DNA from: an uncultured cyanobacterium
GTDB lineage: Bacteria > Cyanobacteriota > Cyanobacteriia > PCC-6307 > Cyanobiaceae
Direction: 5' to 3'
DNA length: 64,000 nucleotides
Assembly (NCBI GenBank): GCA_963697335.1
Contig: CAVONQ010000002.1
Span: forward strand, 224,001 to 288,000
The position numbers and the translations under genes were made by a program. A model generated the notes under the pieces. It was not told where the DNA came from, did no database searches, and saw only the letters and a list, made by a program, of their open reading frames with translations. Below, one piece after another: positions 14,073 through 63,569 of this stretch; position 1 is the first letter of the stretch, and each line of letters opens with the position of its first letter.

Positions 14073-14086
14073 GGCCGGCGCCCGGC

Positions 14087-32356: not shown

Positions 32357-32381
32357 GGGGAGAGGAGGGAGTCCGGGTGGG

Positions 32382-47681: not shown

Positions 47682-48128
47682 TCAGCGCACCACCAGCACC
47701 GGACAGGGGCTCTGGGTCAGCACCCGCTGGGTCTCGCTGCCGAGCAGCAGCCCCTGGAGCCCGCGCCGGCCGTGGGAGGCCATCACGATCAGGTCGCAGG
47801 CCTCGCTGCGGGCCTCCTCCAGGATCGCCATCGCGGGCTGGGCACTGATCCGCTTCACCACCTCAGCGGCCACGCCGGCCTGCTGCGCCGTGGCGGCGGC
47901 GGCGGCCAGGATCTGCTCGGATTGCTGCTGGGCCGCCTGCATCAGCGCCTCGATGGCGCTGGTGTCCACCAGTTGCCCCGCCCCCACCAGGGATACCGGC
48001 AAGGTGCCCTGCACGGTGAGGATGCGCAGGCGAGCCCCGAGGGCGCCGGCCAGGGCGAGGGCCTGCTCCAGGGCCCGCTGCGACAGGGCCGAACCATCGG
48101 TGGCGACAAGCAGGTGCTGAAAGGTCAT
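47682..48128 (-). CDS. Universal stress protein
   Basis: LVATDGS, DLIVMASHGRRG..LLGSET..VL. Confidence 0.93.
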   Translation of the reverse strand: MTFQHLLVATDGSALSQRALEQALALAGALGARLRILTVQGTLPVSLVGAGQLVDTSAIEALMQAAQQQSEQILAAAAATAQQAGVAAEVVKRISAQPAMAILEEARSEACDLIVMASHGRRGLQGLLLGSETQRVLTQSPCPVLVVR

Positions 48129-48195
48129 GGCGGAGCCCGGGGCCTCTTCCAGGTTTAGCCCCGCCGCCACCGTGGCGCCCGGGCTGGGCGCCGCC

Positions 48196-50283
48196 TCAGT
48201 GCAGCGGATCGCTGATCACCAGCACGGAGATGGGCAGGCGGCGCATCAGCCGCCCCATGCGGTCGCCGGCGGGAATCGGCAGTCCGGCCACCAGGCGCCG
48301 TTGGGAGCGCAGGATCACCAGGTCGTGGCGGCGGGCCGCCGCCACGATGCAGGCGTCGATGCTCTGGTCGGACCGGATCTCCACCGTGATCGGCACGGCG
48401 GCGGCCTGCGCCTCGGTGCCGGGCTGCCAGCGGGCCAGTTGGGCCTCCACCGCAGCCCGCTGCTGGCTGCTCTGTCCGAGGTCGGGCACGTGCAGCAGGG
48501 TGATGCTGCCGTCCAGGGCGGCGGCCAGCCGCTCGGCCAGCTGAAACTGCTCCAGGGCACCGGCGGTCACGTCCTTGATGGGCACCAGGAGCCGCTTCAG
48601 GCTGGCGGGATCCCGGCGCAGGCCGGCCACCACCACAGGGCAGCTCACCTGGCGGCAGGTGGCCTCCACCAGATCGCCGAACAGCCACTGGCCGAGCCTC
48701 CCCGGGCGAGCCAGGCCCATCAGGACCAGGTCACTGGCCTGCTCCATCGCCACCCGGGCAATGCCGGCCGCCACATCACTGTCCACCCGCAGCAGGGGCT
48801 GGCAGGGCACCTGATCGGCTCTGGCGATGCCGCTGGCGGTGTGGAGCAGCTCGCGGGCCCGGCCCAGACTCGCCGCCATCGCCGAGGGGCTGGAGTGCCC
48901 GGCTTCCGCCTGCCGCGGCGACACCACCGCCAGGGGCAGCACCAGGCCCGGATCCTGTGAGGAGCCACCGATCAGCAGCCCGGCCAGGGCGAACAGCCGG
49001 GCCTCACTGTTCGGATTCGACACCGGCAGGAGCACCCGCAGGGAACGCCTCACCAGGGCCAGGCGGCCGGTCGCCTCGGCCGTGAGGGAGGCGGCCGCCG
49101 CCTGGGCCAGCCTGGGGATCGCCTGGGCGGTGAGGGCGGGGCCGAGGGTGGCGGTCACCACCATCATCGCCAGCACGCTGTTGAGCACTGCGGCATCAAA
49201 CAGGCCGGCCCGAAATCCCACGAAGGTGGCCGCCAGGGTGGCCGCCACCTGGGGCAGGGACAGCGACCACAGGGTGAGCACCTGGGTGCGGTTGTAGCGG
49301 TAGATCCAGCCGGCCCAGAGGGCGGCCAGCCCCTTGGTGGTGATCAGCGTGGCGATCAGGGCGATGGCGAAGGGGCTGCCCAGGATCGTTCTGAAGAAGG
49401 TGGGCAGGTCGAGCAGCAGCCCCAGGTCGATGAAGAAGATCGGGATGAACAGGGCCGCCCCCACGAACACCACCTGCTCCTTCACCCTCCCTTCCGGCAG
49501 CACGCGGTTGACCGCCAGGCCCGCCAGGAAGGCGCCCACGATCTTCTCCACCCCTGCCAGTTCGGCCCCCAGACCCGCCACAAACAGGGTCAGCAGCACG
49601 GCCACAAACAGCTGGCTGTCGTTGTTGACGCTGCGGCGCACCAGGCCCGTGCCCAGCCGGGTGATCGTGCCCACCAGCAGCAGGGCGAACAGGGCCACCT
49701 TGCCCAGCAGCAGGGCCACTGCCGGCGCTGAGAGTTCGCCGCGGCTCAACCCCATGCAGAGGGCGAGCAGCAGCAGGGCGGCCAGGTCGGTGAAGATCGT
49801 GCCGCCGATGGCCACCACCACCGATTCCTCCCCCACGGCGCCGTAGCTGCGCACGATCGGATAGCCCAGGGGGGTGTGGGAGGCCAGCACCGAGCCCAGC
49901 AGCACGGCGCTCAGAGGCGTGTAGCCGTAGGCCAGGGCCAGGGCGGCCCCCCCCAGCAGCGGCAGGCTGAAGGTGAGCAGGCCGAACTGGAAGGAGCGCT
50001 GGCGGATGCGGGCGAATTCGGCCAGGTCGATCTCCAGCCCTGCGATGAACAGCAGGTAGATCACGCCGATGTCGGAGAGCAGGCCCACGGTGGGGCCCTC
50101 GGTCTGCAGCCACCCCAGGCCATAGGGGCCGATCAGCACCCCGGCAGCCAACAGGCCCACCAGATCGGGCAGCCGCAGCCAGCGGGCCAGGGGGGGCACC
50201 AGCACGCTCAGGCTGAGCAGCAGGGCGAACACGGCCAGGGGTGATCCCTGCAGGAAGGCGGCCATGCCGCTGCTGGGGGCCAT
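48196..50283 (-). CDS. Cation:proton antiporter with C-terminal USP-like domains
   Basis: Multi-TM Na+/H+ exchanger domain (LLFIAGLEID, TIFTD, GAFLAG) plus USP-like tail. Confidence 0.9.
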   Translation of the reverse strand: MAPSSGMAAFLQGSPLAVFALLLSLSVLVPPLARWLRLPDLVGLLAAGVLIGPYGLGWLQTEGPTVGLLSDIGVIYLLFIAGLEIDLAEFARIRQRSFQFGLLTFSLPLLGGAALALAYGYTPLSAVLLGSVLASHTPLGYPIVRSYGAVGEESVVVAIGGTIFTDLAALLLLALCMGLSRGELSAPAVALLLGKVALFALLLVGTITRLGTGLVRRSVNNDSQLFVAVLLTLFVAGLGAELAGVEKIVGAFLAGLAVNRVLPEGRVKEQVVFVGAALFIPIFFIDLGLLLDLPTFFRTILGSPFAIALIATLITTKGLAALWAGWIYRYNRTQVLTLWSLSLPQVAATLAATFVGFRAGLFDAAVLNSVLAMMVVTATLGPALTAQAIPRLAQAAAASLTAEATGRLALVRRSLRVLLPVSNPNSEARLFALAGLLIGGSSQDPGLVLPLAVVSPRQAEAGHSSPSAMAASLGRARELLHTASGIARADQVPCQPLLRVDSDVAAGIARVAMEQASDLVLMGLARPGRLGQWLFGDLVEATCRQVSCPVVVAGLRRDPASLKRLLVPIKDVTAGALEQFQLAERLAAALDGSITLLHVPDLGQSSQQRAAVEAQLARWQPGTEAQAAAVPITVEIRSDQSIDACIVAAARRHDLVILRSQRRLVAGLPIPAGDRMGRLMRRLPISVLVISDPLH

Positions 50284-51225: not shown

Positions 51226-51381
51226 GGCGGCGGAAGTAACGATGTCATCATGTTACGAAAGACTGCGAAATCTTGACGGTTGGGATGTTTTGGTTCCCTG
51301 ATCTTTGATCTAAGGGTTTCTGATCGGAGTGGCTGGGGCTCGGCGGGGGCGGCGATAGGGTCGTCGCAGGCTTCCGCTGCC

Positions 51382-52488
51382 ATGAGTTCACCGGCTTCCG
51401 CTTCGTTTCTGGCCGATGCCGCCCTGACGGCCGGCGCCGGTTCCCTCGGGGTGCTGGTGTGTGGCCACGGCAGCCGCAACCGCCTGGCGGTGGCCGAGTT
51501 TGCCGCCCTGGCTGAGCAGCTGCAGCAGCGGCTGAGGCCGGTGCCCCTGGAGTACGGCTACCTGGAGTTCGCCAGGCCGATCCTGCGCGACGGTCTGGAG
51601 GCCTTGCGCCGTCGCGGTGCGGAGCACATCCTGGCGGTGCCGGCGATGCTGTTTGCGGCGGGCCATGCCAAGAACGACATCCCTTCGGTGCTCAACACCT
51701 ACGCCGCCGAGACTGGACTGCGCATTGATTACGGCCGGGAGCTCGGGGTGGATCGCCGCATGATCCAGGCCGCCGGGGCCCGGATCCGGGAGGCCCTCGC
51801 CAGCGCCCCCAGCCCCGTGCCCCTGCAGGACACCCTGCTGGTGGTGGTGGGGCGCGGGTCGTCCGACCCCGACGCCAACTCCAACGTGGCCAAGGTCACC
51901 CGCATGCTGGTGGAGGGCTTTGGCTTCGGCTGGGGCGAAACGGTGTACTCAGGCGTCACCTTTCCCTTGGTGGAGCCAGGCCTGCGCCAGGCGGTGCGTC
52001 TGGGCTACCGCCGGGTGGTGGTGTTTCCCTACTTCCTGTTTTCGGGCGTGTTGGTGAGCCGGATCGTGCAGCACACCGAGCGCGTGGCGGCCGATCATCC
52101 CGATGTGGAGTTCATTCAGGCCGCCTATTTAGGCGACCATCCCCATGTGCTCGACACCTTCGAAGAGCGGGTGATGGATGTGGTGCGGGGCGACACCGCC
52201 ATGAACTGCTCCCTCTGCAAATACCGGGCCCAGGTGCTCGGCTTTGAAACAGATGTGGGGGCGCCGCAGCACAGCCACCACCACCACGTGGAAGGGCTCA
52301 CGGATGGCTGTGACCTGTGCGAGCGCGAATGCACGGGAGCCTGCCAGCCCGATGGGGTTCCCATCCCGTTGGGGGCCGCGGCCACAGACCACGGCCATGC
52401 CCATGGGCACCACCACCACCCCGCCTACCCCCACGCCGACCACCCCCTGGGCCCCCGCACCCTGCGCTCCGGTGGCGCGACGGGGTAG
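51382..52488 (+). CDS. cbiX: Sirohydrochlorin cobaltochelatase CbiX
   Basis: GHGSR, GHAKNDIP, GRGSSD, MNCSLC, His-rich tail. Confidence 0.92.
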   Translation: MSSPASASFLADAALTAGAGSLGVLVCGHGSRNRLAVAEFAALAEQLQQRLRPVPLEYGYLEFARPILRDGLEALRRRGAEHILAVPAMLFAAGHAKNDIPSVLNTYAAETGLRIDYGRELGVDRRMIQAAGARIREALASAPSPVPLQDTLLVVVGRGSSDPDANSNVAKVTRMLVEGFGFGWGETVYSGVTFPLVEPGLRQAVRLGYRRVVVFPYFLFSGVLVSRIVQHTERVAADHPDVEFIQAAYLGDHPHVLDTFEERVMDVVRGDTAMNCSLCKYRAQVLGFETDVGAPQHSHHHHVEGLTDGCDLCERECTGACQPDGVPIPLGAAATDHGHAHGHHHHPAYPHADHPLGPRTLRSGGATG

Positions 52489-53364: not shown

Positions 53365-54999
53365 TCAGTCCCCCCGGACCAGCCGCTGGCAGGCGGCCTC
53401 GCAGGCCCGCCAGGTGATCGCCATCGCCGTGAGCGTGGGGCTCTGCCAGCCGGCGCCAGGCCAGCAGGCCCCGTCCACCACCAGCACATTGGGAGCCCGC
53501 CAGCACTGGTTGAAGGGATTCACCACGCCCTCTTCCTCCCTGGCGGCCATGCGGGCGCCGCCCAGCTCATGGATGTAGTAGCCGGGCGGGGCAGCACCCT
53601 GGCCCGCGGCATGGCTGCGGAGGATCCAGGGCTCCAGCAGGGGCAGCACGAACAGGTCTTCGAGCGGGCGGATCGTGCCCCCAGCCGCGGCCACCACCGC
53701 CGCCATCCGCCCCTGCATGTGGGCCACCATGGCGGTTTCATTGGGTCCCCAGCCCATGGAGATGTGCGGTGTGGGCAGCCCCCAGGCATCGCTCTGGTCG
53801 CTGTTCAGGGTGACCCGGTTGTCGGCCCGGGGCAGCACCTCGCCATGGCCGATCAGGAAGCCCACGGCCTCGCCGCGGCGGCGCTGCAGCAGGCTGGGCG
53901 GATCGAAGCGCTGCACCGCCGCCCAGATGCCGTAGCCGCGCTGGAAGCCCTCCTGGCTTGCCCCGTCAAGGTTCACGGTGTTGGGGATGAAGCAGCTGCC
54001 GGCGCCGGAGAGCTCGGCCGGTTCCGCAGGTTGCTCCAGGTCGGGAATCGAGAAGAAGCGGCTGCTGGACACGTGGTCCATCAGATAGTGCCCCAGGCTG
54101 CCGGAGGGATCGATCAACCCGCCGCTCCTGCAGGCCTCGCCGGAGTGCAGCAGGATCCGCAGGGTCTCGATCGTGGAGGCGCACAGCACCAGCAGCGGAG
54201 CCTGCAGCTCCTGCCGTTCGCCGCTGTGGCTGTCGATCACCACCACGCCCCGGGCCCGCCCCTGGCCCGGCTCCATCACCAGATGGCTCACCAGGGCGCC
54301 GCTGCGCACCGCGGTGCGGCCAGTGGCCAGGGCCCGGGCCAGGGTGCTGCCGGGGCTCGACGAGCGGCTCCAGCCCGGGCCGCGGTGCAGGTTGAAGCCC
54401 CGCGAGTGGATCAGGGGCAGGTCCAGGTCGCGGCCGATCGCCTGGCGCAGGTGCTGTTCGCCCGGGGTGAGGGGCAGGGGATCGAGGAACTGGCCATCGG
54501 GGAGCTGGGGCAGGCCGTCGGCCTGGCCGTGCACCCCGAGCAACCGCTCCAGGCGGTCGTAGTAGGGGGCCAGATCCGGCTCGTCGATCGGCCAGCTCGG
54601 ACCACAGCCATCGCGTTCGCCGGCCTTGAATTCGTGGTGGCTCAGCCGCAGGGTGATGCCACCCCAGGTGAGGCTCTTGCCGCCGAGCTGGCGGCCGCGG
54701 GTCCAGAGGAAGGGGCGCTCAGGCGGGGTGGAATAGGGATTGAGCCGCTCGTCGGCGAACAGTTCGGGGTTGTTCTTCCAGTAACCGGGGTGGTGGGCCT
54801 GCAGGCGCTGACGGCCACTGGCGAGATGGGCAACCCGCCTCAGGCTGTTGAGCGGCTCGGCGCCGCGGGCGCGGGCGGCGCCGAGCTCCGCCCCGGCCTC
54901 GAGCACCAGCACCCGCAGGCCAGCCTCCGCCAGCACCATGGCCGCCACCCCACCGGTGGCGCCGGAACCCACCACGATGGCGTCAGGGCGCTCTGTCAT
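53365..54999 (-). CDS. GMC family FAD oxidoreductase
   Basis: VVGSGATGG, GGKSLTWGG, YLMDH, HELGGARM, NVLVVDGA, PTLT.MA. Confidence 0.9.
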   Translation of the reverse strand: MTERPDAIVVGSGATGGVAAMVLAEAGLRVLVLEAGAELGAARARGAEPLNSLRRVAHLASGRQRLQAHHPGYWKNNPELFADERLNPYSTPPERPFLWTRGRQLGGKSLTWGGITLRLSHHEFKAGERDGCGPSWPIDEPDLAPYYDRLERLLGVHGQADGLPQLPDGQFLDPLPLTPGEQHLRQAIGRDLDLPLIHSRGFNLHRGPGWSRSSSPGSTLARALATGRTAVRSGALVSHLVMEPGQGRARGVVVIDSHSGERQELQAPLLVLCASTIETLRILLHSGEACRSGGLIDPSGSLGHYLMDHVSSSRFFSIPDLEQPAEPAELSGAGSCFIPNTVNLDGASQEGFQRGYGIWAAVQRFDPPSLLQRRRGEAVGFLIGHGEVLPRADNRVTLNSDQSDAWGLPTPHISMGWGPNETAMVAHMQGRMAAVVAAAGGTIRPLEDLFVLPLLEPWILRSHAAGQGAAPPGYYIHELGGARMAAREEEGVVNPFNQCWRAPNVLVVDGACWPGAGWQSPTLTAMAITWRACEAACQRLVRGD

Positions 55000-55009
55000 C
55001 GGCGCGAGC

Positions 55010-56341
55010 TCAGCTGCCCGAGAGGCTGGCATCCAGCCGGATCAGGCTCTGCAGCAGCACATTCACGCCCTGTTCGCACTGCTCCGGCGTGGTGAACTCC
55101 GCGGCGGAGTGGGACACGCCATCGCGGCTGGGCACGAAGATCATGCCCATGGCGGTGAGCCTGCCCAGCTCCTGGGAGTCGTGGCTGGCGCGGCTGGGCA
55201 GGTGGGTGTGGCTCAGCCCCAGCTGCTGGCAGCTCTCGGTGATCAACTCCTGCACCATCGGATCGGCGGGGCTGGGATCCACCACGAACTGGGGTGTCAT
55301 CGCGATGCGGGTGCGGCTGGCCACAGCGATGTTCTCGATCTTCCGCTCCAGGTGGGCGCGCATGTGGTCGATCACGCTGTGGGAGAGGTCGCGCATGTCG
55401 AGGGTGAACTCCACCCGTCCCGGCACGATGTTGGCGGCATTGGGCCATACCTGCAGCTTGCCCACCGTGGCCACCGGATCGCCGGGGAAGTGGAGGGCCA
55501 TGTCCTCCACTGCCAGGATGATCTGGGCCGCGGTGGTGAGGGCATCGCGCCGCATGCCCATCGGCGTGGTGCCGGCGTGATTGGCCTGGCCGGTCACGCT
55601 GATCGTGTAGCGCTGCTGGCCCACAACGCCCTCCACCACGCCGATGTCCTTGCCCACGGCCTCCAGCACGCCCCCCTGCTCCACATGCAGCTCCACGAAG
55701 GCGGCGATCTCCCCGGGCGCCCGGCGGGCGCTGGCGCGGTGCTCCCAGGAGCCGCCGATGCTGGCCAGGCCCTCCTGAATGGGCACCCCCAGGGCCGTGG
55801 TGTAGCTGCTGGGGTCGTCGGAAGCGCGGCCCACCAGGCTCTTGCAGCCCACCATGGTGCTCTCCTCATCGGCGAACACGATCAGCTCGAGCGGGTGCTG
55901 CAGGCGCTGGTTGTGCTCCGAGAGCACCCGCACCACCTCCAGCCCGGCCAGCACGCCCAGGGCGCCGTCGTAGTGGCCCCCCTCCGGCACCGTATCGATG
56001 TGGGAGCCGGTGGCCAGCACGGGGGCTCCCGGCTCGAGGCCCTCGTAGCGGCCGATCATGTTGCCGGCGGCGTCGATGCGCACCGCCATGCCCGCCTGCT
56101 CCATCCAGCCCTGCACCAGGGCGCGGGCGGCGCGGTCTTCATCGCTGAAGGCCAGCCGCCGCACGGCCCCGGAGGGCACCCGGCCGATGCTGGCCAGGGC
56201 TTCGAGGTTGAGGGCCAGGCGTTCACCGTCGGCCCGCAGCGCCAGCAACGAGCTGACCGCGGCCAGGGAGGCGGTGTCGCTGCCGAGATGGCCGTTGCTG
56301 AGGGGGCCTGGGCCCAGGGGAGCGGCGCTAAGCTGAGTCAT
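55010..56341 (-). CDS. Zn-dependent N-carbamoyl-L-amino acid amidohydrolase (M20; hydantoinase/carbamoylase family)
   Basis: GSHIDTVPEGG.YDG.LGV, DEE, ELHVEQG, HAGTTPM..RRDA, S.ASHD, G.SH. Confidence 0.92.
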   Translation of the reverse strand: MTQLSAAPLGPGPLSNGHLGSDTASLAAVSSLLALRADGERLALNLEALASIGRVPSGAVRRLAFSDEDRAARALVQGWMEQAGMAVRIDAAGNMIGRYEGLEPGAPVLATGSHIDTVPEGGHYDGALGVLAGLEVVRVLSEHNQRLQHPLELIVFADEESTMVGCKSLVGRASDDPSSYTTALGVPIQEGLASIGGSWEHRASARRAPGEIAAFVELHVEQGGVLEAVGKDIGVVEGVVGQQRYTISVTGQANHAGTTPMGMRRDALTTAAQIILAVEDMALHFPGDPVATVGKLQVWPNAANIVPGRVEFTLDMRDLSHSVIDHMRAHLERKIENIAVASRTRIAMTPQFVVDPSPADPMVQELITESCQQLGLSHTHLPSRASHDSQELGRLTAMGMIFVPSRDGVSHSAAEFTTPEQCEQGVNVLLQSLIRLDASLSGS

Positions 56342-56547
56342 GGAAAGGACCGTATCGGCTGAGGAGAATCGGCTGATCAGGGTGCGGGCGATTCCCCTTG
56401 ATCCATCCGGCCGGAGGCGGGTCTGATCAAAGGTGCCCTTAGGCACAAACTCACGGACCAGGATCGTCAATCATCTCCAGAACCTAATTCTCCGCATCAC
56501 GCGTGGTGGACCCCATGGGCCCATCACGTCCAACCCACCCACCTGCG

Positions 56548-57294
56548 ATGACCTACTCGATCGTTGCCTGGGACAGCCCCACCGGGATGACCGGTGTGGG
56601 CGTAGCCACCCGCCACCTGGCCGTGGGATCCCTCGTACCCCACGCCAGACCTGGTGTGGGGGCCGTGGCCACCCAGGCCGGCACCAACCCCTATTTCGGT
56701 CCGTGGGGCCTGGATCGGTTGGAGCAGGTTCAGCAGCAGAGCGGCGGGGAGCTGGGGGCTGAGGCGGTGCTGGAGTCGTTGCTGCAGGACGATCCGGGGC
56801 GGGATGGCCGCCAGGTGCACCTGGTGGACAGCCAGGGCCGCACCGCCGCCTGGACAGGCCCCGACTGCGCCGGCCTCGCGGCCCATCGCTGCTATCCCGG
56901 CTTTTCGGTCGCGGGCAATTACCTCGCCTCCGAGCTGGTGCTGCTGGCCATGGCCGAGGCCTACATGGCCGCCGAGCGCCATGGTCTGGCCCTGGAGGAA
57001 CGCCTGATGGCGGCTCTGGAGGCGGCTGAAGCCCACGGCGGCGACTATCGAGGCCGTCAGTCGGCCGCCCTGCTGGTGATGCACCAGGAGAGCTATCCCC
57101 ACATCGACTTCCGGGTGGACCATCACCCTGAGCCGCTGGTGGCGCTGCGCGAGATCCTGGCCGAAACCAGCCAGCCCTACTACACCGGTTTCCGCGCCAC
57201 CCTGCCCACCACCCTCGGGGTGGCCCAGACCGCAGAGCTTCCAGCGGCAGGGGTGGAGTCGCCTCAGCCGCCCGACATGCCGATCAGCGCGTAG
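56548..57294 (+). CDS. DUF1028 Ntn-hydrolase-like protein
   Basis: MTYSIVA, GAVATQA, AAWTG, AGN, GGDYRGRQSAAL, RVDHH. Confidence 0.88.
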   Translation: MTYSIVAWDSPTGMTGVGVATRHLAVGSLVPHARPGVGAVATQAGTNPYFGPWGLDRLEQVQQQSGGELGAEAVLESLLQDDPGRDGRQVHLVDSQGRTAAWTGPDCAGLAAHRCYPGFSVAGNYLASELVLLAMAEAYMAAERHGLALEERLMAALEAAEAHGGDYRGRQSAALLVMHQESYPHIDFRVDHHPEPLVALREILAETSQPYYTGFRATLPTTLGVAQTAELPAAGVESPQPPDMPISA

Positions 57295-59330
57295 GCCGGC
57301 TCTGCCTGATCGGCAGCCCCGGGCCTCCAGCCCAGCCGGTCGGCCAGTTCCCTGGCCTGGGCGGGCACATCGGCGGCCACGAACAGCTCGTGCATGATCT
57401 GCACGCCGATCAGGTGATTGATCACGGCGTCGAGCTGCACCCGCGTTGCCGGGCTGGTGGCGGGATCGTCGTGGCGGGCGAACAGCGCCGCCACCCCCGC
57501 CCGATCCAGCAGCCCGGCCCGCTCGATGGCCTCGGCGCTGAGGTGGCGGTCGGCCAGCACCTGCATGGCGGCGCGCTTCTCGGGGTCGGCGTGGGCCGGT
57601 GGGGCCATGAAGGCAAACTTCTCGCGGCGGTAGAGCTGCTCGGGCAGCAGGCCGCGCATGGCCTCGCGCAGCACGTATTTCTCCGTTTTGCCCTTGATGC
57701 GCAGCTCCGGCGGCACCTGCACGGCAACGGCGGCCAGATGGTGGTCGAGGAAGGCGGGGCGCGCCTCCATGGCGTGGGCCATGTCCACCCGGTCGCCGCC
57801 CCAGGTGAGGATCTGGCCCTCCAGCATCGTTTTGATCCACACATACTGGGCCCTGTCGAGGGCATGGCGGCCCTCGAGTTGGGAGGGATCGAGGCTGGCG
57901 GCGATGGCGGCGCCGGGCTCATAGCCGGCGCAGGCCTGGCGGTGCAGCGGAGCCAGCAGGGCCGGCACCAGGGGAGCGCAGGCCAGCCAGGGCTGGAGGC
58001 AGCTGGGCGTGAAGCCCACCACGGCCTCCAGGGCCGGATCGTGCACCTGCTCCTCGGCCAGCATCGCCCCCTGCACCAGCTGGTTGGCCTCCTGCAGCAG
58101 CTGCTCCCACTCCTGGCGATCGGCCTCCGGCAGGTCCTGCAGCCCGTGCAGGAACATGTCGCGACGGAAGGCGGGATACCCCCCGAACAGCTCATCGGAG
58201 CCCTCGCCGGTCATCACCACCTTGTAGTGGGAGCGGTTGACCTCGCGGCTCATCAGGAATTTGGCCACCGCCAGGGTGTTGTAGATCGTGCGCTCGGTGT
58301 GCCAGATCGTGGCCTCCAGGTGGCCGTAGAGCTCATGGCCGGAGAGCCGCATCACCAGTTGGTCGGCGCCGGTGGCCTCGGCCATCGAGGTGGCGATCGG
58401 GGTTTCGTCGTAGCGGCTGTCGTCGAAGCCGATCGTGAACGCCTTCACCGGGTTCTGGCTCACCGCGGCGGCCAGGCCCAGGATCGAGCAGGAGTCGATG
58501 CCGCCGGAGAGGTAACAGCCCACGGGCACATCGGCCACCATGCGCACTTCCACGGCTTCCAGCAGGGCCTGGCGCACGGCGGCGATGTGGTCGGCCTCCG
58601 TGCGGTCGGGATCGCGCTCGCCGCTGCGGGGGAAGTCCACGTCCCAGTAGGGCTGGTCGTCGATGCTGAAGCGCCCGTCGTGGCGGCGCACGGTGAGCAC
58701 GTGGCCGGGTTTGAGCTGGTGCACCCCCTCAAAGGCCGTGGTGCCCGGCACCATGGTCTGCATCAGCTGGTGGAACAGGCCTTCGGAGCTGAAGCGCCGT
58801 TGCACGCCGGGGTGGGCGAACAGCACCTTGAGCTCGGAGCCGAACACCAGGCCCTCCTCGGTGAGGGTCCAGTACTGGGGCTTGACGCCGAAGCGGTCGC
58901 GCACCAGGTAGAGGCTGTCGAGGCGGCTGTCGAACAGGGCGAAGGCGAACTCCCCGCGCAGCAGCGGCAAGCTGGCTTCCAGGCCCCGCTGCTGGTAGAG
59001 CCGCAGCAGGATCTCGGAATCGCTCTTGCTGCTGAAGTGATGGCCCTGGGCCGTGAGCGAGGCGCGGATCGCCTGGAAGTCGTAGAACTCACCGTTGTGG
59101 GCCATCAACAGCTGGCCGTCCTCAGACACAAACGGCTGGCGGCCGCGGTTGGCATCGAGGTCGATGATCGAGAGGCGGGCATGGCAGAAGCCCACGCCCT
59201 GATCCGGCAGGCCCCTCACGCCGAAGCCATCGGGGCCCCGGTGAACCTGGATCGCCGCCATGTTGACGAGCACCTGCTCGTCGATCGGCTGCTGGGGCTG
59301 GAGCTGAAATACTCCCCCGATGCCACACAT
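57264..59330 (-). CDS. asnB: Asparagine synthase-like glutamine-dependent amidotransferase
   Basis: MCGI Ntn Cys, HRGPD, RLSIID, NGEFY, SDSE, LSGGIDS, TGEGSDELFGGY. Confidence 0.93.
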   Translation of the reverse strand: MCGIGGVFQLQPQQPIDEQVLVNMAAIQVHRGPDGFGVRGLPDQGVGFCHARLSIIDLDANRGRQPFVSEDGQLLMAHNGEFYDFQAIRASLTAQGHHFSSKSDSEILLRLYQQRGLEASLPLLRGEFAFALFDSRLDSLYLVRDRFGVKPQYWTLTEEGLVFGSELKVLFAHPGVQRRFSSEGLFHQLMQTMVPGTTAFEGVHQLKPGHVLTVRRHDGRFSIDDQPYWDVDFPRSGERDPDRTEADHIAAVRQALLEAVEVRMVADVPVGCYLSGGIDSCSILGLAAAVSQNPVKAFTIGFDDSRYDETPIATSMAEATGADQLVMRLSGHELYGHLEATIWHTERTIYNTLAVAKFLMSREVNRSHYKVVMTGEGSDELFGGYPAFRRDMFLHGLQDLPEADRQEWEQLLQEANQLVQGAMLAEEQVHDPALEAVVGFTPSCLQPWLACAPLVPALLAPLHRQACAGYEPGAAIAASLDPSQLEGRHALDRAQYVWIKTMLEGQILTWGGDRVDMAHAMEARPAFLDHHLAAVAVQVPPELRIKGKTEKYVLREAMRGLLPEQLYRREKFAFMAPPAHADPEKRAAMQVLADRHLSAEAIERAGLLDRAGVAALFARHDDPATSPATRVQLDAVINHLIGVQIMHELFVAADVPAQARELADRLGWRPGAADQAEPAYALIGMSGG

Positions 59331-59376: not shown

Positions 59377-60462
59377 TCAGATGATGTCCATCACCTGGTC
59401 TGTGCGCTCCACCATGCAGGTGAGCAGGGCCATGCGGATGAACACGGCGCCGCGGGCCTGGGAGAAGTACCAGTTGTGGGGGCTGCCATCGAGGCAGGTG
59501 CCCAGCTCGGCCCCGCGGGCCAGGGGGTGGAGGATGATCGCTTCAGGCCGGTAGGGCAGATCGGCGGTGAGGTGGAAGCTGCGGCCATGCACCTCGTAGT
59601 TGTCCCCCACCCAGGCGATCGCGTTGATGTAGATCACATCGAGATCGGGCACGGCGGCGCTGAGGTCATCGCTGGTGAGCACCTTGATGCCGGCCTGCTC
59701 CAGCTCCTCCCGCTGGCCTGGATCAAAGTAGCTCTCGGCTTCCCCAGGGTCGATGCCAGGCTCGTGGAACAGCACCAGTTCATCGATCATCTGCGGGAAT
59801 TTGGTGAGGATGCGCAGCAGGGAACGCACCGTGCGCATGCGCTTCGGGATGCCCACGATGCCGATGCGGATGCGTTGATCGGTGGGCACATCCTGCTCCA
59901 CCAGCTGGGGCCGCCACTTGAAGATGGTGTAGAGGTCGGCCATGGCCTGGGTGGGATGTTCATCGATGCCATTGCCGGCATTGATGATCGGAATCCGCAG
60001 AGATTCCGTCATCTCGTAGATGGCCTGGGCATTGGTATCCCGCAACACCACGCAGTCGCCGTAGTTGTTGAACATCTCGGCCACATCCCGGAGCGTTTCC
60101 CCCTTGGCGATACCAGTGGTGCTGCGATCCGTGATCGTGATCGTGTCGCCGCCGAGCCGGTGCCAGGCGCTGTCGAAGGAGAGTCGGGTGCGGGTGCTGG
60201 GCTCGTAGAAGGCGTTGATCAGGATCTTGCGCTGCAGCGGGCTGTTGAAGCGGATGTAGCGCTGGGGATTGCTCTCGAACTTCGCCGCCAGCCGAAACAC
60301 CTGCAGCAGGGAAGTGGCGCTGTATTGCAGCGTGGAGATCACATGCTGATTCATCAGATCACTCAGGGCCCCGCCGTGCTCGCGGATCTGCTCGAGCAGG
60401 GCCTGTGGGTGAGCGTTCCCATAGACATCAGGGCCGAGCCGATTGAAGTGGGGAGAGTGCAT
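59377..60462 (-). CDS. Aspartate carbamoyltransferase-like protein (divergent PyrB paralog)
   Basis: EPSTRT, KGET, NAG...EHPTQ, RTVRSL, HPLAR; the RxQ aspartate motif is missing; start could be 60573. Confidence 0.88.
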   Translation of the reverse strand: MHSPHFNRLGPDVYGNAHPQALLEQIREHGGALSDLMNQHVISTLQYSATSLLQVFRLAAKFESNPQRYIRFNSPLQRKILINAFYEPSTRTRLSFDSAWHRLGGDTITITDRSTTGIAKGETLRDVAEMFNNYGDCVVLRDTNAQAIYEMTESLRIPIINAGNGIDEHPTQAMADLYTIFKWRPQLVEQDVPTDQRIRIGIVGIPKRMRTVRSLLRILTKFPQMIDELVLFHEPGIDPGEAESYFDPGQREELEQAGIKVLTSDDLSAAVPDLDVIYINAIAWVGDNYEVHGRSFHLTADLPYRPEAIILHPLARGAELGTCLDGSPHNWYFSQARGAVFIRMALLTCMVERTDQVMDII

Positions 60463-60628
60463 CGTCAAAGGTGATCCCGGGGGCTGGGGATGTTGTGGTC
60501 GAACGGGGTGGAAGGCTCCATCTTCCGCCTCAACCGGGTTGTTGTCTGGAATCTCTTGTGTTTTCTGCAACATCGGAACCGCAAAAAAGTAGCGGTATTG
60601 ACCGTTTTGTGATCAGTCGGCCCTGGCG

Positions 60629-60820
60629 CTACCAGACCCGGCCGTTGCGCCACTCCACGAACCAGATGCCCAGGATCACCAACACGGCCAGCACGAGGCC
60701 GGCGATGCTGCCGTACACCACCAGGCCGAACCACCAGCCGGAGATCAGCCAGGAGCCGGCGGGGGCGCTGGTGCTCAGCAGCAGGGAAGGGAACAGGGCC
60801 ATGGCTTGGGGGATGGGCAC
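60629..60820 (-). CDS. Small membrane protein, possible symporter accessory subunit
   Basis: Hydrophobic helix ending EWRNGRVW; starts 3 bp after the symporter stop. Confidence 0.65.
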   Translation of the reverse strand: MPIPQAMALFPSLLLSTSAPAGSWLISGWWFGLVVYGSIAGLVLAVLVILGIWFVEWRNGRVW

Positions 60821-60823
60821 GAC

Positions 60824-62257
60824 TCAGGGGCTCTCGGGATCGCCGGCCAGCTGGCGCCAGTCGTACTGCTCGGGCCAGTAGTGGCTGCCCAGGCCCATCA
60901 CCAGGGCCGAGACGGCGGCGGAGACCAGGGCGGCGCAGTAGGGGGCGATCAGCCCGTAGGCCAGCAGGCCGCTGACCGAGCCCAGCAGCATGGCGGCGGT
61001 GGCCGCCTGGCGGTTGGCCTGGCGCCAGTAGAGCCCCATGGCAATCGGCCAGATCGTGGAGGCCACCAGGGCGCCGGTGAACAACAGCAGCTGGTACATC
61101 GACGTCACGTATTGCCAGGAGAGCAGCATGGTCAGCAGGCCCAGGGCCACCACCACCCGGCGGGCGGCCTGGCGGATCTGCTGGTCGGTGGAGTCGGGGC
61201 GTAACCAGTGGGCGATCACGTCCTCGGCGATCAGATCGGCCGTGGCGGCGAGCAGGGAGTCGAGGGTGGAGGTGAGCGAGGCGAAGATGATCACGAACAC
61301 CACCGCGGCGCCGCTGCTGCCCAGCAGCTGGGCGGTGACGATGGGGAACACCATGTTCACCTGGGGAATCTCGAGGTTCTGGGCCAGGGCCATCAGGGCG
61401 ATGGCGCCCGTCACGATCGGCACGGTGACCCAGGCCAGGCCGCCGAGCACGAAGGAGCGGAACACCACCGAGGGGCGGCTGGCGAACACCCGCGACCACC
61501 AGATGTTGTTGTGGAACACCTCGCCCATGCTGAACAGCCCGGTGTTCCAGGCGAAGAGCAGACCTGCCGGCAGCAGCAGATTCAGTCGCTCGGGATGCTC
61601 GCTGGCCAGGGCCGTGTACACCTGATCGGTGCCGAAGCGGCTGAAGCCGAGCACGGCCACCAGCACCAGCAACGCCATGATCAGCAGCGACTGGATGAAG
61701 TCGGTGCCCACCACCGCTCGCATGCCGCCGAACAGGGTGTAGGTGGTGGACACGCCGATCACACACACCATGCCAAGGCGGTAGTCGAAGCCCGAGAGCG
61801 ACTGCAGCAGCAGGCCGGCCCCCATGCCCTGGGTGATCAGAAAGCCCAGGGTGTAGGCCATGGTGATCAGCAGGAACAGGGCCCAGCAGAGCCGCCCGTA
61901 GCGCAGCCGCACGAAGTCGCCGCTGGTGCGGGCCCGGGGCATCAGCCGCTTGATCCGCACCGCCAGGGGAGCGAACAGGAACAGCCCCAGGCCGGCGAGG
62001 GCGTAGCCGAACATGCCCCAGAGGCCGAGGGTGTAACCCACCTCCGGCGCCGCCAGGGTGGTGTTGCCGGTGACCCAGCTGGCCATCAGGGTGGCCGTGC
62101 TCAGGGCCAGGCCGATGTTGCGGCCGGCGAGCAGGTAGTCGTCGGCGTCGCCGCTGCCGCGCCGGCCCCACCAGATGCCCAGGGCGATCCAGAGCACGGA
62201 GAAGCCCACCAGGAGCAGCCAGGCGGCGCCCGGCGCCAGCATCGCGTCAGTCGTCAT
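60824..62257 (-). CDS. Sodium:solute symporter, DUR3/urea-transporter-like
   Basis: YLLAGR, ASWVTGNT, TLFGGMRAV..TDFIQ, WWSRVFA, STLDSLL; about 13 TM segments. Confidence 0.9.
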   Translation of the reverse strand: MTTDAMLAPGAAWLLLVGFSVLWIALGIWWGRRGSGDADDYLLAGRNIGLALSTATLMASWVTGNTTLAAPEVGYTLGLWGMFGYALAGLGLFLFAPLAVRIKRLMPRARTSGDFVRLRYGRLCWALFLLITMAYTLGFLITQGMGAGLLLQSLSGFDYRLGMVCVIGVSTTYTLFGGMRAVVGTDFIQSLLIMALLVLVAVLGFSRFGTDQVYTALASEHPERLNLLLPAGLLFAWNTGLFSMGEVFHNNIWWSRVFASRPSVVFRSFVLGGLAWVTVPIVTGAIALMALAQNLEIPQVNMVFPIVTAQLLGSSGAAVVFVIIFASLTSTLDSLLAATADLIAEDVIAHWLRPDSTDQQIRQAARRVVVALGLLTMLLSWQYVTSMYQLLLFTGALVASTIWPIAMGLYWRQANRQAATAAMLLGSVSGLLAYGLIAPYCAALVSAAVSALVMGLGSHYWPEQYDWRQLAGDPESP

Positions 62258-62269
62258 CGGGGCAGGGCA

Positions 62270-62398
62270 TCAACCGGGGTCATCGAAGGGATCGCGCTGG
62301 TGCCAGCGCCGGTGGCCGCGCAGCACCATCACCACGGTGGTCAGGGTCACCAGGCCGCCGAGCACGAAGATCAGCAGGGCCCGTTGCAGCTCGGTCAT
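62270..62398 (-). CDS. 42-aa single-TM small protein
   Basis: MTELQRALLIFVLGGLVTLTTVVMVLRGHRRW..., preceded by GGAGG. Confidence 0.7.
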   Translation of the reverse strand: MTELQRALLIFVLGGLVTLTTVVMVLRGHRRWHQRDPFDDPG

Positions 62399-62474: not shown

Positions 62475-62551
<77 letters not shown>

Positions 62552-62597: not shown

Positions 62598-63569
62598 TCA
62601 GTCGAAGCGCAGCTCGCCGCGCACGTCCAGCTTCAGGTGCGGTGCCGGCTCCAGGAACGAGCGGCGCAGCTCCTCGAGGGTCATCGGCGTCAGCCAGTCG
62701 AGCTGCTCCAGCAGGTGCAGGGCCACGGCGTGCTTGGCCCGCCCGGCGCCGTCCTCCACCTTGATCGCCACCCCCAGCCCCTCGCCCACCCGGCTGAGGC
62801 ACTGAATCCCCTCGGCACCTCCCTTGCTGAGCACCTGGCCATGGCCCAGGCGCATCAGCTCGGTGTCGAAGCGGCCCTCGCCGGCCACCAGCTCCGGATG
62901 GCTGAGCATCGCCCGGCTGAGCCGCTCCAGGTCGGGTTGGGCGCCAGCTCCGAGGTGGGCGTAGAGCAGGGCCATCTGGGCCAGCTGCAGCTGCAGGGTG
63001 GGTGCGCCGCAGTCGTCGCGGGCCGTGACCAGTTCAGCGGCGGGCAGGCCGAGCAGTTCGGCCACCCGCTTGAGCACCTCCTGCTGCAGGGGATGCTCCG
63101 GCTGCAGGTAGCTCTCCAGGGCCCAGCCCATGCGCCGGCAGGTGGCCAGGAAGGCGGCGTGCTTGCCGGAGCAGTTGTGCTCCAGGGGGCTGCTGCCGTG
63201 CTCGGGCACGGGGCTCTGCAGCTGCTCGGCCTCCACCTCGGCGCCCCACAGCAGCCGGAAGGCCTCGCGGGCATGGCCGGAGGTGCCGGCATGGGAGGCG
63301 CAGGCAATGGCCAGGCCCCGGTCGCCGCAGTTGATCTGGTCGGCGGTGCCGCTGGCCACGAACACGGAGGCCTGAAAGGGCTTGAGGGCCGAGCGCACGA
63401 AGCTCAGCTGCTGGGGATCGCCGGCCCGCATCAGCACGCGGCCGCGGCCATCGCACACCACCGCATGCACCCGATGGCGGGATTCGGTGATGCCGTTGCG
63501 CAGCAGTCGCACCTCCAGGGGAGGAATGGAGGTGCGGGCCGATCCGCCGAAGCTGGGGGGCAGGGACAT
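62598..63569 (-). CDS. L-asparaginase II family protein
   Basis: ES.H, RSALKPFQA, ACASH, HNCSGKH, DDCGAP, SKGGAEG, KVEDG. Confidence 0.9.
   Translation of the reverse strand: MSLPPSFGGSARTSIPPLEVRLLRNGITESRHRVHAVVCDGRGRVLMRAGDPQQLSFVRSALKPFQASVFVASGTADQINCGDRGLAIACASHAGTSGHAREAFRLLWGAEVEAEQLQSPVPEHGSSPLEHNCSGKHAAFLATCRRMGWALESYLQPEHPLQQEVLKRVAELLGLPAAELVTARDDCGAPTLQLQLAQMALLYAHLGAGAQPDLERLSRAMLSHPELVAGEGRFDTELMRLGHGQVLSKGGAEGIQCLSRVGEGLGVAIKVEDGAGRAKHAVALHLLEQLDWLTPMTLEELRRSFLEPAPHLKLDVRGELRFD

What the first reader, a model, noticed from the sequence alone, without database searches (positions are those of the whole stretch)
59377..60462. ATCase paralog keeps the carbamoyl-phosphate site but has lost the aspartate beta-carboxylate residues
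Seen: STRT, the K84-equivalent (AKGET), R105-equivalent (VLRD), HPTQ, R167-equivalent (RTVRSL) and HPL are present. The segment matching E. coli PyrB DILYMTRVQKER reads DVIYINAIAWVG, placing Ala at R229 and Q231 (manual alignment). Established: R229/Q231 bind the Asp beta-carboxylate and R167 the alpha-carboxylate. Inference: the enzyme carbamoylates a different amino acid, possibly one with a neutral side chain such as Gln or Asn.
Basis: partly seen in the sequence, partly recalled or inferred. Interest (0 to 1): 0.75.

Follow-up and report, generated by a model that had tools for sequence, protein, structure and literature searches.

The report
Non-aspartate ATCase paralog in ureido-amide operon
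This gene looks like the pyrimidine enzyme aspartate transcarbamoylase but has lost the residues that hold aspartate's side chain; it belongs to a published but never tested "pseudo-ATCase" family that always sits between a sodium symporter and an asparagine-synthetase-like enzyme, and probably helps make a carbamoylated amino-acid amide, possibly a salt-protection solute.

Summary
The gene (59377-60462, minus strand, 361 aa) keeps every carbamoyl-phosphate and catalytic residue of ATCase. It has Ala at R229 and Q231, Gly at R234 and Ala at the universal P268, and these changes hold across its family.

It is not the housekeeping PyrB; a canonical one lies elsewhere in the genome. It is a member of the marine 'pseudo-ATCase' subgroup published by Barba et al. 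2013 (motifs HPLA and AIA). Dore et al. 2023 call it pyrB2 within an asnB-pyrB2-pydC cluster. No function has been tested in the papers I could search.

In the 80 related loci I fetched, the order symporter, ATC-like, AsnB-like is kept, apart from one locus cut by a contig end. Among 121 genomes of the same family, 14 carry the ATC-like gene. The same 14 carry the adjacent AsnB-like ortholog.

No carbamate kinase was found in 6 of 6 carrier genomes, which argues against a catabolic role.

My best reading (about 0.45) is that the enzyme carbamoylates a neutral alpha-amino acid and the AsnB-like enzyme then amidates its carboxylate. The product would be an N-carbamoyl amino-acid amide. [quoted passage not shown]

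This scan has reached the same reading on other genomes. Nothing here measures a product.

The parts
59377..60462 (-). ATCase-like transcarbamoylase ('pseudo-ATCase', pyrB2), 361 aa. The carbamoyl-phosphate site is intact; the 240s loop reads NAIAWVG and HxLP reads HPLA. A conserved N-terminal extension of about 35 aa precedes the ATCase fold.
   Evidence: residues; AlphaFold model pLDDT 83.9, pTM 0.88; Foldseek matches ATCase chains, e.g. 1d09_A TMt 0.85, rmsd 2.6; start codon by GC3.
57264..59330 (-). Long AsnB-type glutamine-dependent amidotransferase, 688 aa, starting 46 nt after the ATC-like stop. It keeps Cys2 (MCGI), the SGGIDS PP-loop and GEGSDELFGGY.
   Evidence: TIGR01536 422 bits over its cut-off; NAGGN amidotransferase TIGR03104 312 bits, below the 570 cut-off; best solved relative is 7ylz 'hydroxyamidotransferase', then AsnB 1ct9. 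(fixed partner).
60824..62257 (-). Sodium:solute symporter family (SSF) transporter, 477 aa, the first large gene of the unit; substrate unknown.
   Evidence: PF00474; no NCBIfam equivalog reached; present upstream on the same strand in 80/80 loci.
62270..62398 (-). 42-aa single-helix micro-ORF just upstream of the symporter (MTELQ...RGHRRW...).
   Evidence: sequence; tblastn E<0.01 in 33 of the 80 loci, at the same place. In gammaproteobacteria, a 170-aa exported protein ending in a similar helix takes this place in 35 of 40 full-length gammaproteobacterial loci.
60629..60820 (-). Second micro-ORF between symporter and ATC-like gene: 63 aa from GTG 60820, or 57 aa from ATG 60802. One helix plus a C-terminal IWxxEWRxGxVW motif.
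   Evidence: tblastn E<0.01 in 36 of 80 loci, all 36 cyanobacterial or cyanobacterium-like.
60463..60628 (-). 166-nt A-rich leader with low GC3 between micro-ORF 2 and the ATC-like start.
   Evidence: no Rfam match. Its role is unknown.
55010..56470 (-). [quoted passage not shown] 2023). Homology starts near residue 78 of the ORF, so the true start is probably downstream of 56470.
   Evidence: TIGR01879 410 bits over cut-off; ErtE N-carbamyl-L-glutamate amidohydrolase 415 bits, below 520; best solved relative is the L-carbamoylase 3n5f, E 2e-93, ahead of allantoate amidohydrolase 1z2l at 2e-61; a relative lies within the locus in 45 of 80.
56503..57294 (+). DUF1028 protein, 263 aa (Ntn-hydrolase fold by recall), on the opposite strand here; candidate amidase.
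   Evidence: only solved relative is 2imh, a hypothetical protein; in 28 of 80 loci, all cyanobacterial or cyanobacterium-like.
53365..55032 (-). GMC-family FAD oxidoreductase, 555 aa, overlapping the M20 gene's end. A neighbour only in the closest relatives; membership in the system is doubtful.
   Evidence: (4 of 80 loci).
62598..63569 (-). Asparaginase_II-family amidohydrolase, 323 aa, upstream of the unit. It is separated from the unit by tRNA-Met and a terminator-like hairpin. A neighbour only in the closest relatives.
   Evidence: (5 of 80 loci).
62475..62551 (-). tRNA-Met (CAT), followed by a G+C-rich hairpin and a T run; this marks the upstream border of the unit.

Best explanation
The gene encodes an active, anabolic transcarbamoylase that transfers the carbamoyl group of carbamoyl phosphate to the alpha-amino group of a neutral L-alpha-amino acid, not to aspartate. 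It works as one unit with the AsnB-type amidotransferase encoded 46 nt downstream. That enzyme would adenylate the free alpha-carboxylate of the N-carbamoyl amino acid and replace it with an amide, using glutamine-derived ammonia. The product would be an uncharged N-carbamoyl amino-acid amide.

[quoted passage not shown] It is an osmolyte described from Ectothiorhodospira marismortui, and the papers I read name no genes for it.

The other genes would serve the same compound. The symporter with its two micro-proteins would take up or recapture it. The DUF1028 hydrolase would remove the amide and the M20 L-carbamoylase-like enzyme would remove the carbamoyl group, returning the amino acid.

Shown: the residue pattern, the fixed gene partnership, the lack of carbamate kinase, and the family placement. 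Inferred: the direction of the reaction, the order of the steps, the identity of the amino acid, and the osmolyte role.
For: 1. Catalytic and carbamoyl-phosphate residues are all kept; the beta-carboxylate residues are replaced family-wide. The fold is that of ATCase.
2. Retention of R167, R105 and K84 suggests the acceptor still has an alpha-carboxylate, so carbamoylation would precede amidation (inference and Shi et al. 2015, section read).
3. The order symporter, ATC-like, AsnB-like on one strand is found in 80, 80 and 79 of 80 loci; the 80th is cut by a contig end. These loci span cyanobacteria and gammaproteobacteria. Names listed add alphaproteobacteria.
4. In 121 genomes of the window's family, 14 have the ATC-like gene. 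Exactly those 14 have an adjacent AsnB-like ortholog of at least 71% identity. The other 107 have only paralogs of 41% identity or less, or none.
5. The AsnB-like enzyme keeps the glutaminase Cys and the PP-loop. Its nearest solved relative amidates a non-aspartate carboxylate. NCBIfam's third-best match is the NAGGN amidotransferase family. By recall, that family makes the alpha-carboxamide of an N-capped glutamine.
6. No carbamate kinase scored over the cut-off in 6 of 6 carrier genomes, so an ATP-yielding phosphorolysis is unsupported.
7. The M20 neighbour is closest to a solved L-carbamoylase. Together with one amidase it would exactly reverse the two synthetic steps.
8. The own genome encodes glucosylglycerol-phosphate synthase. 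In the family sample, 12 of 14 module carriers have it against 38 of 107 non-carriers. Related genomes are not independent, so this is weak support.
9. Dore et al. [quoted passage not shown]
10. CGA exists and the two reviews that mention it name no genes (passages).
Against: - No product, activity or expression was measured. No RNA run was available.
- The acceptor cannot be read from the sequence; Asn, Ala, Gly, Ser or citrulline-like acids are not excluded.
- Dore et al. 2023 find the cluster in warm, N- and P-depleted waters. That is an odd place for a solute with four nitrogens, and it fits nitrogen scavenging better.
- In marine Synechococcus the M20 and DUF1028 genes follow on the same strand, tightly packed. 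Making and breaking would be co-expressed unless controlled otherwise.
- An operon led by a transporter is more typical of uptake and catabolism.
- My search for the compound's name found 3 papers, none reporting it in cyanobacteria, Idiomarina or Kangiella.
- I could not confirm that E. marismortui carries the pair. None of my three homolog listings named it. Only an earlier scan note says so.
Confidence: 0.45

Rival explanations
1. Nitrogen scavenging. The symporter imports a dissolved ureido or amide compound, and the ATC-like enzyme runs backwards, as ureidoglycine, putrescine and catabolic ornithine transcarbamoylases do. It would release carbamoyl phosphate for arginine and pyrimidine synthesis, while the M20 and DUF1028 hydrolases free ammonia.
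For: - The nearest characterised relative in the ATCase branch, UGTCase, is proposed to be catabolic (Barba et al. 2013; Shi et al. 2015).
- The operon is led by a transporter, and hydrolases lie next to it.
- Marine Synechococcus loci place the unit near urease (8 loci).
- The cluster is enriched in N-depleted waters and is read as recycling of complex nitrogen forms by Dore et al. 2023.
Against: - No carbamate kinase in 6 of 6 carrier genomes. Transcarbamoylase equilibria strongly favour carbamoylation (established knowledge, recalled).
- The invariant partner is an ATP- and glutamine-consuming amidotransferase with an intact glutaminase site. It has no role in a breakdown route.
- Idiomarina-type loci carry the three core genes with no M20 or DUF1028 relative within 10 kb.
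- No canonical NtcA box was found in the window (the motif is recalled).
Confidence: 0.2
2. The pair makes some other metabolite. One possibility is that the AsnB-like enzyme activates the ureido carbonyl rather than a carboxylate and converts ureido to guanidino, as argininosuccinate synthetase and GMP synthetase do chemically. Another is that the pair amidates a side-chain carboxylate, or builds a precursor of an unknown secondary metabolite.
For: - The chemistry is feasible for N-type ATP pyrophosphatases (established knowledge, recalled).
- Long AsnB-like enzymes act on varied acids, for example the hydroxyamidotransferase 7ylz.
- The acceptor is unknown.
Against: - I know of no AsnB-family enzyme that does ureido-to-guanidino conversion (recall only, not searched).
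- The accessory genes are an L-carbamoylase-like enzyme and amidase-type hydrolases. These suit a ureido group plus an amide, not a guanidino group.
- The very wide distribution, 556 of 575 candidate stretches in species genomes, suits primary physiology more than a secondary metabolite.
Confidence: 0.15
3. It is a second true ATCase giving an alternative pyrimidine pathway, as the name pyrB2 and the comment in Dore et al. 2023 suggest. Alternatively it is an inactive pseudoenzyme.
For: - Public sources name it aspartate carbamoyltransferase.
- Dore et al. [quoted passage not shown]
- P268 of the universal HxLP motif is lost.
Against: - R229, Q231, E233 and R234 of the motif found in all known ATCases are replaced.
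- It scores below every ATCase equivalog cut-off.
- A canonical pyrB is present.
- All carbamoyl-phosphate residues are invariant at 61-98% identity across phyla, which argues against a dead enzyme. A truly degenerate sister clade exists and looks quite different.
Confidence: 0.04

Closest known systems
Marine 'pseudo-ATCase' subgroup of Barba, Dutoit, Legrain & Labedan 2013 (BMC Syst Biol 7:99, PMC4016543)
   Same: The motifs are identical: STRT, HPTQ, HPLA, and AIA/AIS/SIA in place of RxQ (their Table 1). The synteny is also the same: a Na+ symporter on one side, an 'asparaginase' on the other, and a HyuC-like carbamoylase nearby. Their examples include Synechococcus WH 8102 and Kangiella koreensis (sections read).
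   Different: Nothing that would exclude membership. Here the partner is clearly an asparagine-synthetase-type amidotransferase, not an asparaginase. Added here: two conserved micro-ORFs, the strict co-occurrence count, the carbamate kinase check, and a Cyanobium-like host lineage. The paper assigns no function.
[quoted passage not shown] 2023 (ISME J, PMC10119275)
   Same: The same three enzyme genes, in relatives of this organism. The accessory, patchy distribution (passage) agrees with 14 of 121 genomes.
   Different: Their suggested role is an alternative pyrimidine pathway or nitrogen recycling. This is not supported by the active-site residues. I did not see their Fig. S8 or Dataset 6.
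Aspartate transcarbamoylase catalytic chain (PyrB; E. coli, P. abyssi, M. jannaschii type)
   Same: Same two-domain fold (TMt about 0.85). Same carbamoyl-phosphate site, same K84/S80-type loop from the neighbouring chain, and same R167.
   Different: It has no RxQxER motif, reads HPLA instead of HPLP, and has a shorter 240s loop. It has a conserved N-terminal extension of about 35 aa. There is no pyrI or pyrC context, and it scores below the equivalog cut-offs.
Ureidoglycine carbamoyltransferase (UGTCase, Rxyl_2847 of Rubrobacter xylanophilus)
   Same: An ATCase-branch paralog that has lost RxQ. It handles an alpha-amino acid with a neutral ureido side chain.
   Different: UGTCase has H(T/S)LP, sits beside carbamate kinase and allantoinase, and is proposed to be catabolic. 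Here the motif is HPLA, no carbamate kinase is present, and the partner is an amidotransferase.
NAGGN osmolyte system (asnO-ngg plus an M42 hydrolase); recalled from Sagot et al. 2010 PNAS, not read here
   Same: The logic is the same. The alpha-amino group of glutamine is capped, an AsnB-type enzyme then turns the alpha-carboxylate into an amide, and a hydrolase is encoded alongside. The result is an uncharged solute.
   Different: The cap there is acetyl on a dipeptide, made by a GNAT/ATP-grasp enzyme; here it would be carbamoyl, from a transcarbamoylase. The AsnB-like protein scores 312 bits against the 570 cut-off of TIGR03104, so it is not a member of that family.

Membership tests
Aspartate carbamoyltransferase (PyrB, EC 2.1.3.2) | Two-domain OTCace_N plus OTCace fold with SxRT and HPxQ carbamoyl-phosphate motifs | tested here: met
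Aspartate carbamoyltransferase (PyrB, EC 2.1.3.2) | RxQxER motif of the 240s loop (R229 and Q231 bind the aspartate beta-carboxylate) | tested here: not met
   The loop reads NAIAWVG. Ala at R229 in 0.95 and Ala at Q231 in 0.92 of 39 family rows, against R and Q in 60/60 canonical rows. Motif definition from Shi et al. 2015.
Aspartate carbamoyltransferase (PyrB, EC 2.1.3.2) | HxLP motif with its cis-proline | tested here: not met
   HPLA in 39/39 family rows and in all 6 wider relatives
Aspartate carbamoyltransferase (PyrB, EC 2.1.3.2) | Score over a curated equivalog cut-off | tested here: not met
   TIGR00670 184 bits against 237; NF002032 183 bits against 263
Marine pseudo-ATCase subgroup (Barba et al. 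2013) | Motif set STRT, HPTQ, HPLA, and AIA/AIS/SIA in place of RxQ | tested here: met
Marine pseudo-ATCase subgroup (Barba et al. 2013) | Synteny with a Na+ symporter, an Asn-related enzyme and a HyuC-like carbamoylase | tested here: met
Marine pseudo-ATCase subgroup (Barba et al. 2013) | Forms a clade apart from canonical ATCases | tested here: met
   Quick maximum-likelihood tree of 58 rows. The family forms a clade (SH-aLRT 99). Together with the wider HPLA relatives and a degenerate sister group it is separated from 27 canonical rows by a branch with support 100. The careful search did not finish.
Ureidoglycine carbamoyltransferase (UGTCase) | H(T/S)LP motif and a carbamate kinase neighbour | tested here: not met
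   HPLA; no carbamate kinase over cut-off in 6 of 6 carrier genomes
NAGGN-type osmolyte system | AsnO-type amidotransferase over the TIGR03104 cut-off, with an ngg partner | tested here: not met
   312 bits against 570. I did not search for ngg. No gene beside the pair in the window has a GNAT or ATP-grasp Pfam match.
[quoted passage not shown] | The product is formed by the two enzymes, and the genes are present in the known producer | not testable with these tools
   No assay was possible. The producer's genome could not be reached: it was not named. Only an earlier scan note (e1-3607570) claims presence.

The most novel reading that the evidence does not exclude
[quoted passage not shown] The unit is found in several hundred mostly marine species, including abundant Synechococcus and some Prochlorococcus. 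If the reading holds, such a four-nitrogen solute would be a widespread, overlooked osmolyte or nitrogen reserve, and a component of marine dissolved organic nitrogen, with its own uptake and recycling genes.
Probability: 0.3. Interest if true: 0.8.

Novelty: new member of a known kind. Interest (0 to 1): 0.6.

Why it matters
The gene is routinely annotated as aspartate carbamoyltransferase, and that is almost certainly wrong. Its family is large: 556 confirmed stretches in a collection with one genome per species. It is ecologically patterned in the ocean (Dore et al. 2023) and has had no tested function since it was first described in 2013.

The residue pattern and the fixed partnership turn it into a simple bench question: two enzymes, carbamoyl phosphate, glutamine, ATP. 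A positive answer would assign genes to an osmolyte that, in the papers I read, has none. It would add a new acceptor class to the transcarbamoylases. It would also change how this cluster is read in marine nitrogen budgets.

Tried and rejected
- Confirming the pair in Ectothiorhodospira marismortui. Three homolog searches with different family members list only the best 120 hits each. They named Synechococcus, Thiothrix, Idiomarina, Kangiella, Pseudoalteromonas, Kordiimonas, Rhodomicrobium and others, but not Ectothiorhodospira.
- Pocket geometry.
- Riboswitch or other known RNA in the unit: none beyond tRNA-Met.
- NtcA box GTA-N8-TAC (motif recalled): 0 matches in the window, 0.31 expected by chance. 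This is uninformative.
- Expression: no RNA holder listed. I did not lay reads.
- Literature. Searches combining Synechococcus, salt, asparagine synthetase and carbamoyltransferase found nothing relevant. 'pseudo-ATCase' gives only Barba 2013 and Shi 2015. 'pyrB2/pydC/asnB' gives only Dore 2023, its preprint and an unrelated paper.
- A degenerate paralog encoded beside the family gene: not found in the 80 loci.
- Rest of the window. It holds glnN, a Na+/H+ exchanger and other genes, but no further osmolyte gene.
- Protein-protein complex prediction was not run, because I make no binding claim.
Full report
**What is there.**
The finding's coordinates hold an ORF on the minus strand that ends at 59377. 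The longest reading starts at 60573 (398 aa). Its first 37 codons have GC3 of 0.54 against 0.85 for the rest, and relatives start near residue 38. The ATG at 60462 is therefore the likely start, giving 361 aa.

Pfam finds both transcarbamoylase domains. Every NCBIfam ATCase equivalog is missed; the best scores 184 bits against a cut-off of 237.

An AlphaFold model built from 39 family sequences has pLDDT 83.9 and pTM 0.88. It matches ATCase catalytic chains; for example, PALA-bound 1d09_A has TMt 0.85 and rmsd 2.6 Å.

**The observation.**
HMMER aligns the segment DVIYINAIAWVG with E. coli DILYMTRVQKER. I took E. coli PyrB from the K-12 record. I aligned it with 39 family members, 6 wider relatives and 59 further canonical ATCases. 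The result:

| Position (E. coli numbering) | Family (39 rows) | Canonical (60 rows) |
|---|---|---|
| S52, T53, R54, T55, K84, R105, H134, Q137, L267 | kept, 39/39 | conserved |
| R167 | kept, 0.97 | R, 60/60 |
| R229 | Ala, 0.95 | R, 60/60 |
| Q231 | Ala, 0.92 | Q, 60/60 |
| E233 | Val, 0.64 | E, 60/60 |
| R234 | Gly, 0.92 | R, 0.97 |
| P268 | Ala, 39/39 | P, 60/60 |
| T228 | Asn, 39/39 | T, 0.95 |
| A283 | Asn, 39/39 | A, 0.83 |
| G166 | Met, 39/39 | G, 0.75 |

**It is a paralog.**
The genome has three genes with the carbamoyl-phosphate domain. One is an ornithine transcarbamoylase with HCLP. One is a canonical PyrB with RLQKER and HPGP. The third is this gene.

**It is already in print.**
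Barba et al. [quoted passage not shown] I read passages and their sections on the tree and on the pseudo-ATCases.

One subgroup, found in marine bacteria, has STRT, HPTQ, HPLA, and AIA/AIS/SIA in place of RxQ. It lies between a Na+ symporter and an 'asparaginase', next to a HyuC-like carbamoylase. Their examples are Synechococcus WH 8102, Kangiella koreensis, Nitrosococcus oceani and Rhodopirellula baltica. They assign no function.

Shi et al. [quoted passage not shown] I read the abstract and two sections.

Dore et al. 2023 (PMC10119275) name the cluster asnB-pyrB2-pydC. They suggest an alternative pyrimidine pathway or recycling of complex nitrogen. [quoted passage not shown] I saw passages only; I did not see their Fig. 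S8 or Dataset 6.

Searches for 'pseudo-ATCase' and for 'pyrB2/pydC/asnB' found no later functional work in the held library.

**The gene's company.**
The scan of one genome per species matched 575 stretches, of which 556 encode a relative; 80 loci were kept. They come from Cyanobium and Synechococcus, Kangiella, Idiomarina, Pseudidiomarina, Aliidiomarina, Pseudoalteromonas and others, at 59-82% identity. Names add Thiothrix, Sedimenticola, Kordiimonas, Emcibacter and Rhodomicrobium.

tblastn with the window's proteins finds, out of 80 loci:
- the symporter upstream on the same strand in 80;
- the AsnB-like gene directly downstream in 79 (the remaining locus ends at a contig end);
- an M20 relative in 45;
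- DUF1028 in 28;
- asparaginase II in 5;
- the GMC oxidoreductase in 4.

ORF clustering of the 57 loci of at least 20 kb gives the same core. It shows no other gene shared by both phyla.

Two micro-ORFs are conserved. A 42-aa helix lies before the symporter (33 loci). A 57-63-aa helix with an IWxxEWRxGxVW tail lies between the symporter and the ATC-like gene (36 loci). In 35 of 40 gammaproteobacterial loci, a 170-aa exported protein ending in a similar helix takes the first place.

In Synechococcus RCC307, symporter, ATC-like, AsnB-like, M20 and DUF1028 follow one another on one strand. In this window the layout differs. DUF1028 is on the other strand. The M20 gene, with a GMC oxidoreductase, forms its own unit. 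A tRNA-Met with a terminator-like hairpin closes the upstream side.

**Co-occurrence.**
In 121 genomes of the window's family, 14 hold the ATC-like gene. The same 14 hold an adjacent AsnB-like ortholog at 71-100% identity. One of these carries an in-frame TAA and one is split in two. The other 107 genomes have only paralogs of 41% identity or less, or none. The own genome has two such paralogs elsewhere.

**Direction of the reaction.**
Known catabolic transcarbamoylases sit with carbamate kinase. None scored over the cut-off in the own genome or in five other carriers: Synechococcus RCC307 and WH 8017, Kangiella aquimarina, Idiomarina seosinensis and a Pseudidiomarina.

The partner enzyme keeps Cys2, the PP-loop and the GEGSDE motif. 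Its best solved relative is a hydroxyamidotransferase that acts on a non-aspartate acid. An ATP- and glutamine-consuming partner fits synthesis, not breakdown.

**What it most likely makes.**
Retention of R167, R105 and K84 points to an alpha-amino acid with a free alpha-carboxylate. Loss of the charged side-chain site, and the gain of two invariant Asn, points to a neutral side chain.

A carbamoyl cap on the amine, followed by amidation of the carboxylate, gives an uncharged N-carbamoyl amino-acid amide. A compound of exactly this kind is known. [quoted passage not shown]

The M20 neighbour is closest to a solved L-carbamoylase: 3n5f at E 2e-93, against allantoate amidohydrolase at 2e-61. It also nearly reaches NCBIfam's N-carbamyl-L-glutamate amidohydrolase model. 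With one amidase it would reverse the two synthetic steps.

The logic parallels the NAGGN system, which I recall but did not read here.

The host is salt-adapted. It encodes glucosylglycerol-phosphate synthase (723 bits against a cut-off of 569). In the family sample, 12 of 14 carriers have that gene against 38 of 107 non-carriers. These genomes are related to each other, so this is only a hint.

I wrote this idea down before consulting earlier scan notes. Those notes show that the same reading was reached on at least seven other genomes. One note says the E. marismortui type strain carries the pair. I could not check that here.

**What speaks against it.**
- Nothing was measured.
- The amino acid is not identified.
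- A four-nitrogen solute is odd in nitrogen-poor water, where Dore et al. find the cluster.
- Marine Synechococcus packs the synthetic and hydrolytic genes on one strand.
- A transporter at the head of an operon suggests uptake.
- My literature search found no report of the compound outside Ectothiorhodospira.

The scavenging reading therefore stays alive at about 0.2, and 'some other product' at about 0.15.

**Phylogeny.**
A quick maximum-likelihood tree of 58 rows places the family as one clade (SH-aLRT 99); the careful search did not finish. Cyanobacterial members form a subclade (98) inside proteobacterial ones. The family groups with wider HPLA relatives at about 42% identity and with a sister clade that has lost the catalytic motifs. 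This larger group is separated from 27 canonical ATCases by a branch with support 100 (motifs).

**Verdict.**
The gene is a new member of a published but untested family. The functional hypothesis is attractive, cheap to test and unproven.

Noticed in passing
not in the window; proteins P0129, P0131, P0133, P0134, P0138, P0139, P0141, P0142, P0148, P0151: A sister clade of about 355-aa proteins keeps the family's N-terminal extension, the RTIRS segment and the HNGYFAQ segment. It has lost STRT, HPTQ and HPLA, so these look like catalytically dead relatives of the pseudo-ATCases. Their origin and gene context are unknown. None is encoded in the 80 loci.
   Followed up: partly
window 62270-62398 (-) and 60629-60820 (-): Two conserved single-helix micro-ORFs flank the symporter gene. 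They may be accessory subunits of this SSF transporter.
   Followed up: partly
window 60463-60628 (-): A 166-nt A-rich leader with low GC3 lies in front of the ATC-like gene. It has no Rfam match. I did not test whether it is conserved.
   Followed up: no
genomes G014 and G055: In G014 the AsnB-like ortholog has an in-frame TAA, and its ggpS has an in-frame TAG. In G055 the AsnB-like gene is in two pieces. These could be decay or assembly errors.
   Followed up: no
window 35952-38120 (+): Type III glutamine synthetase (glnN): GSIII_N, Gln-synt_C and Gln-synt_C-ter domains.
   Followed up: no
window 48196-50283 (-) and 47682-48170 (-): A Na+/H+ exchanger fused to universal stress protein domains, followed by a separate Usp gene.
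   Followed up: no
window 5432-14213 (-): Three consecutive genes with RecD-like, UvrD/RecB-like and RecC (Exonuc_V_gamma) domains: a RecBCD-type set in a picocyanobacterium.
   Followed up: no
window 51280-52488 (+): A long CbiX-type chelatase with a histidine-rich C-terminal tail.
   Followed up: no
loci L035:17882-19591 (-) and L012:6421-7920 (-): In marine Synechococcus the unit lies near the urease alpha subunit (8 loci) and near a circularly permuted ATP-grasp gene (8 loci).
   Followed up: no
window 31244-32551 (-): A 435-aa methyltransferase that resembles arsenite methyltransferases but scores below every cut-off.
   Followed up: no
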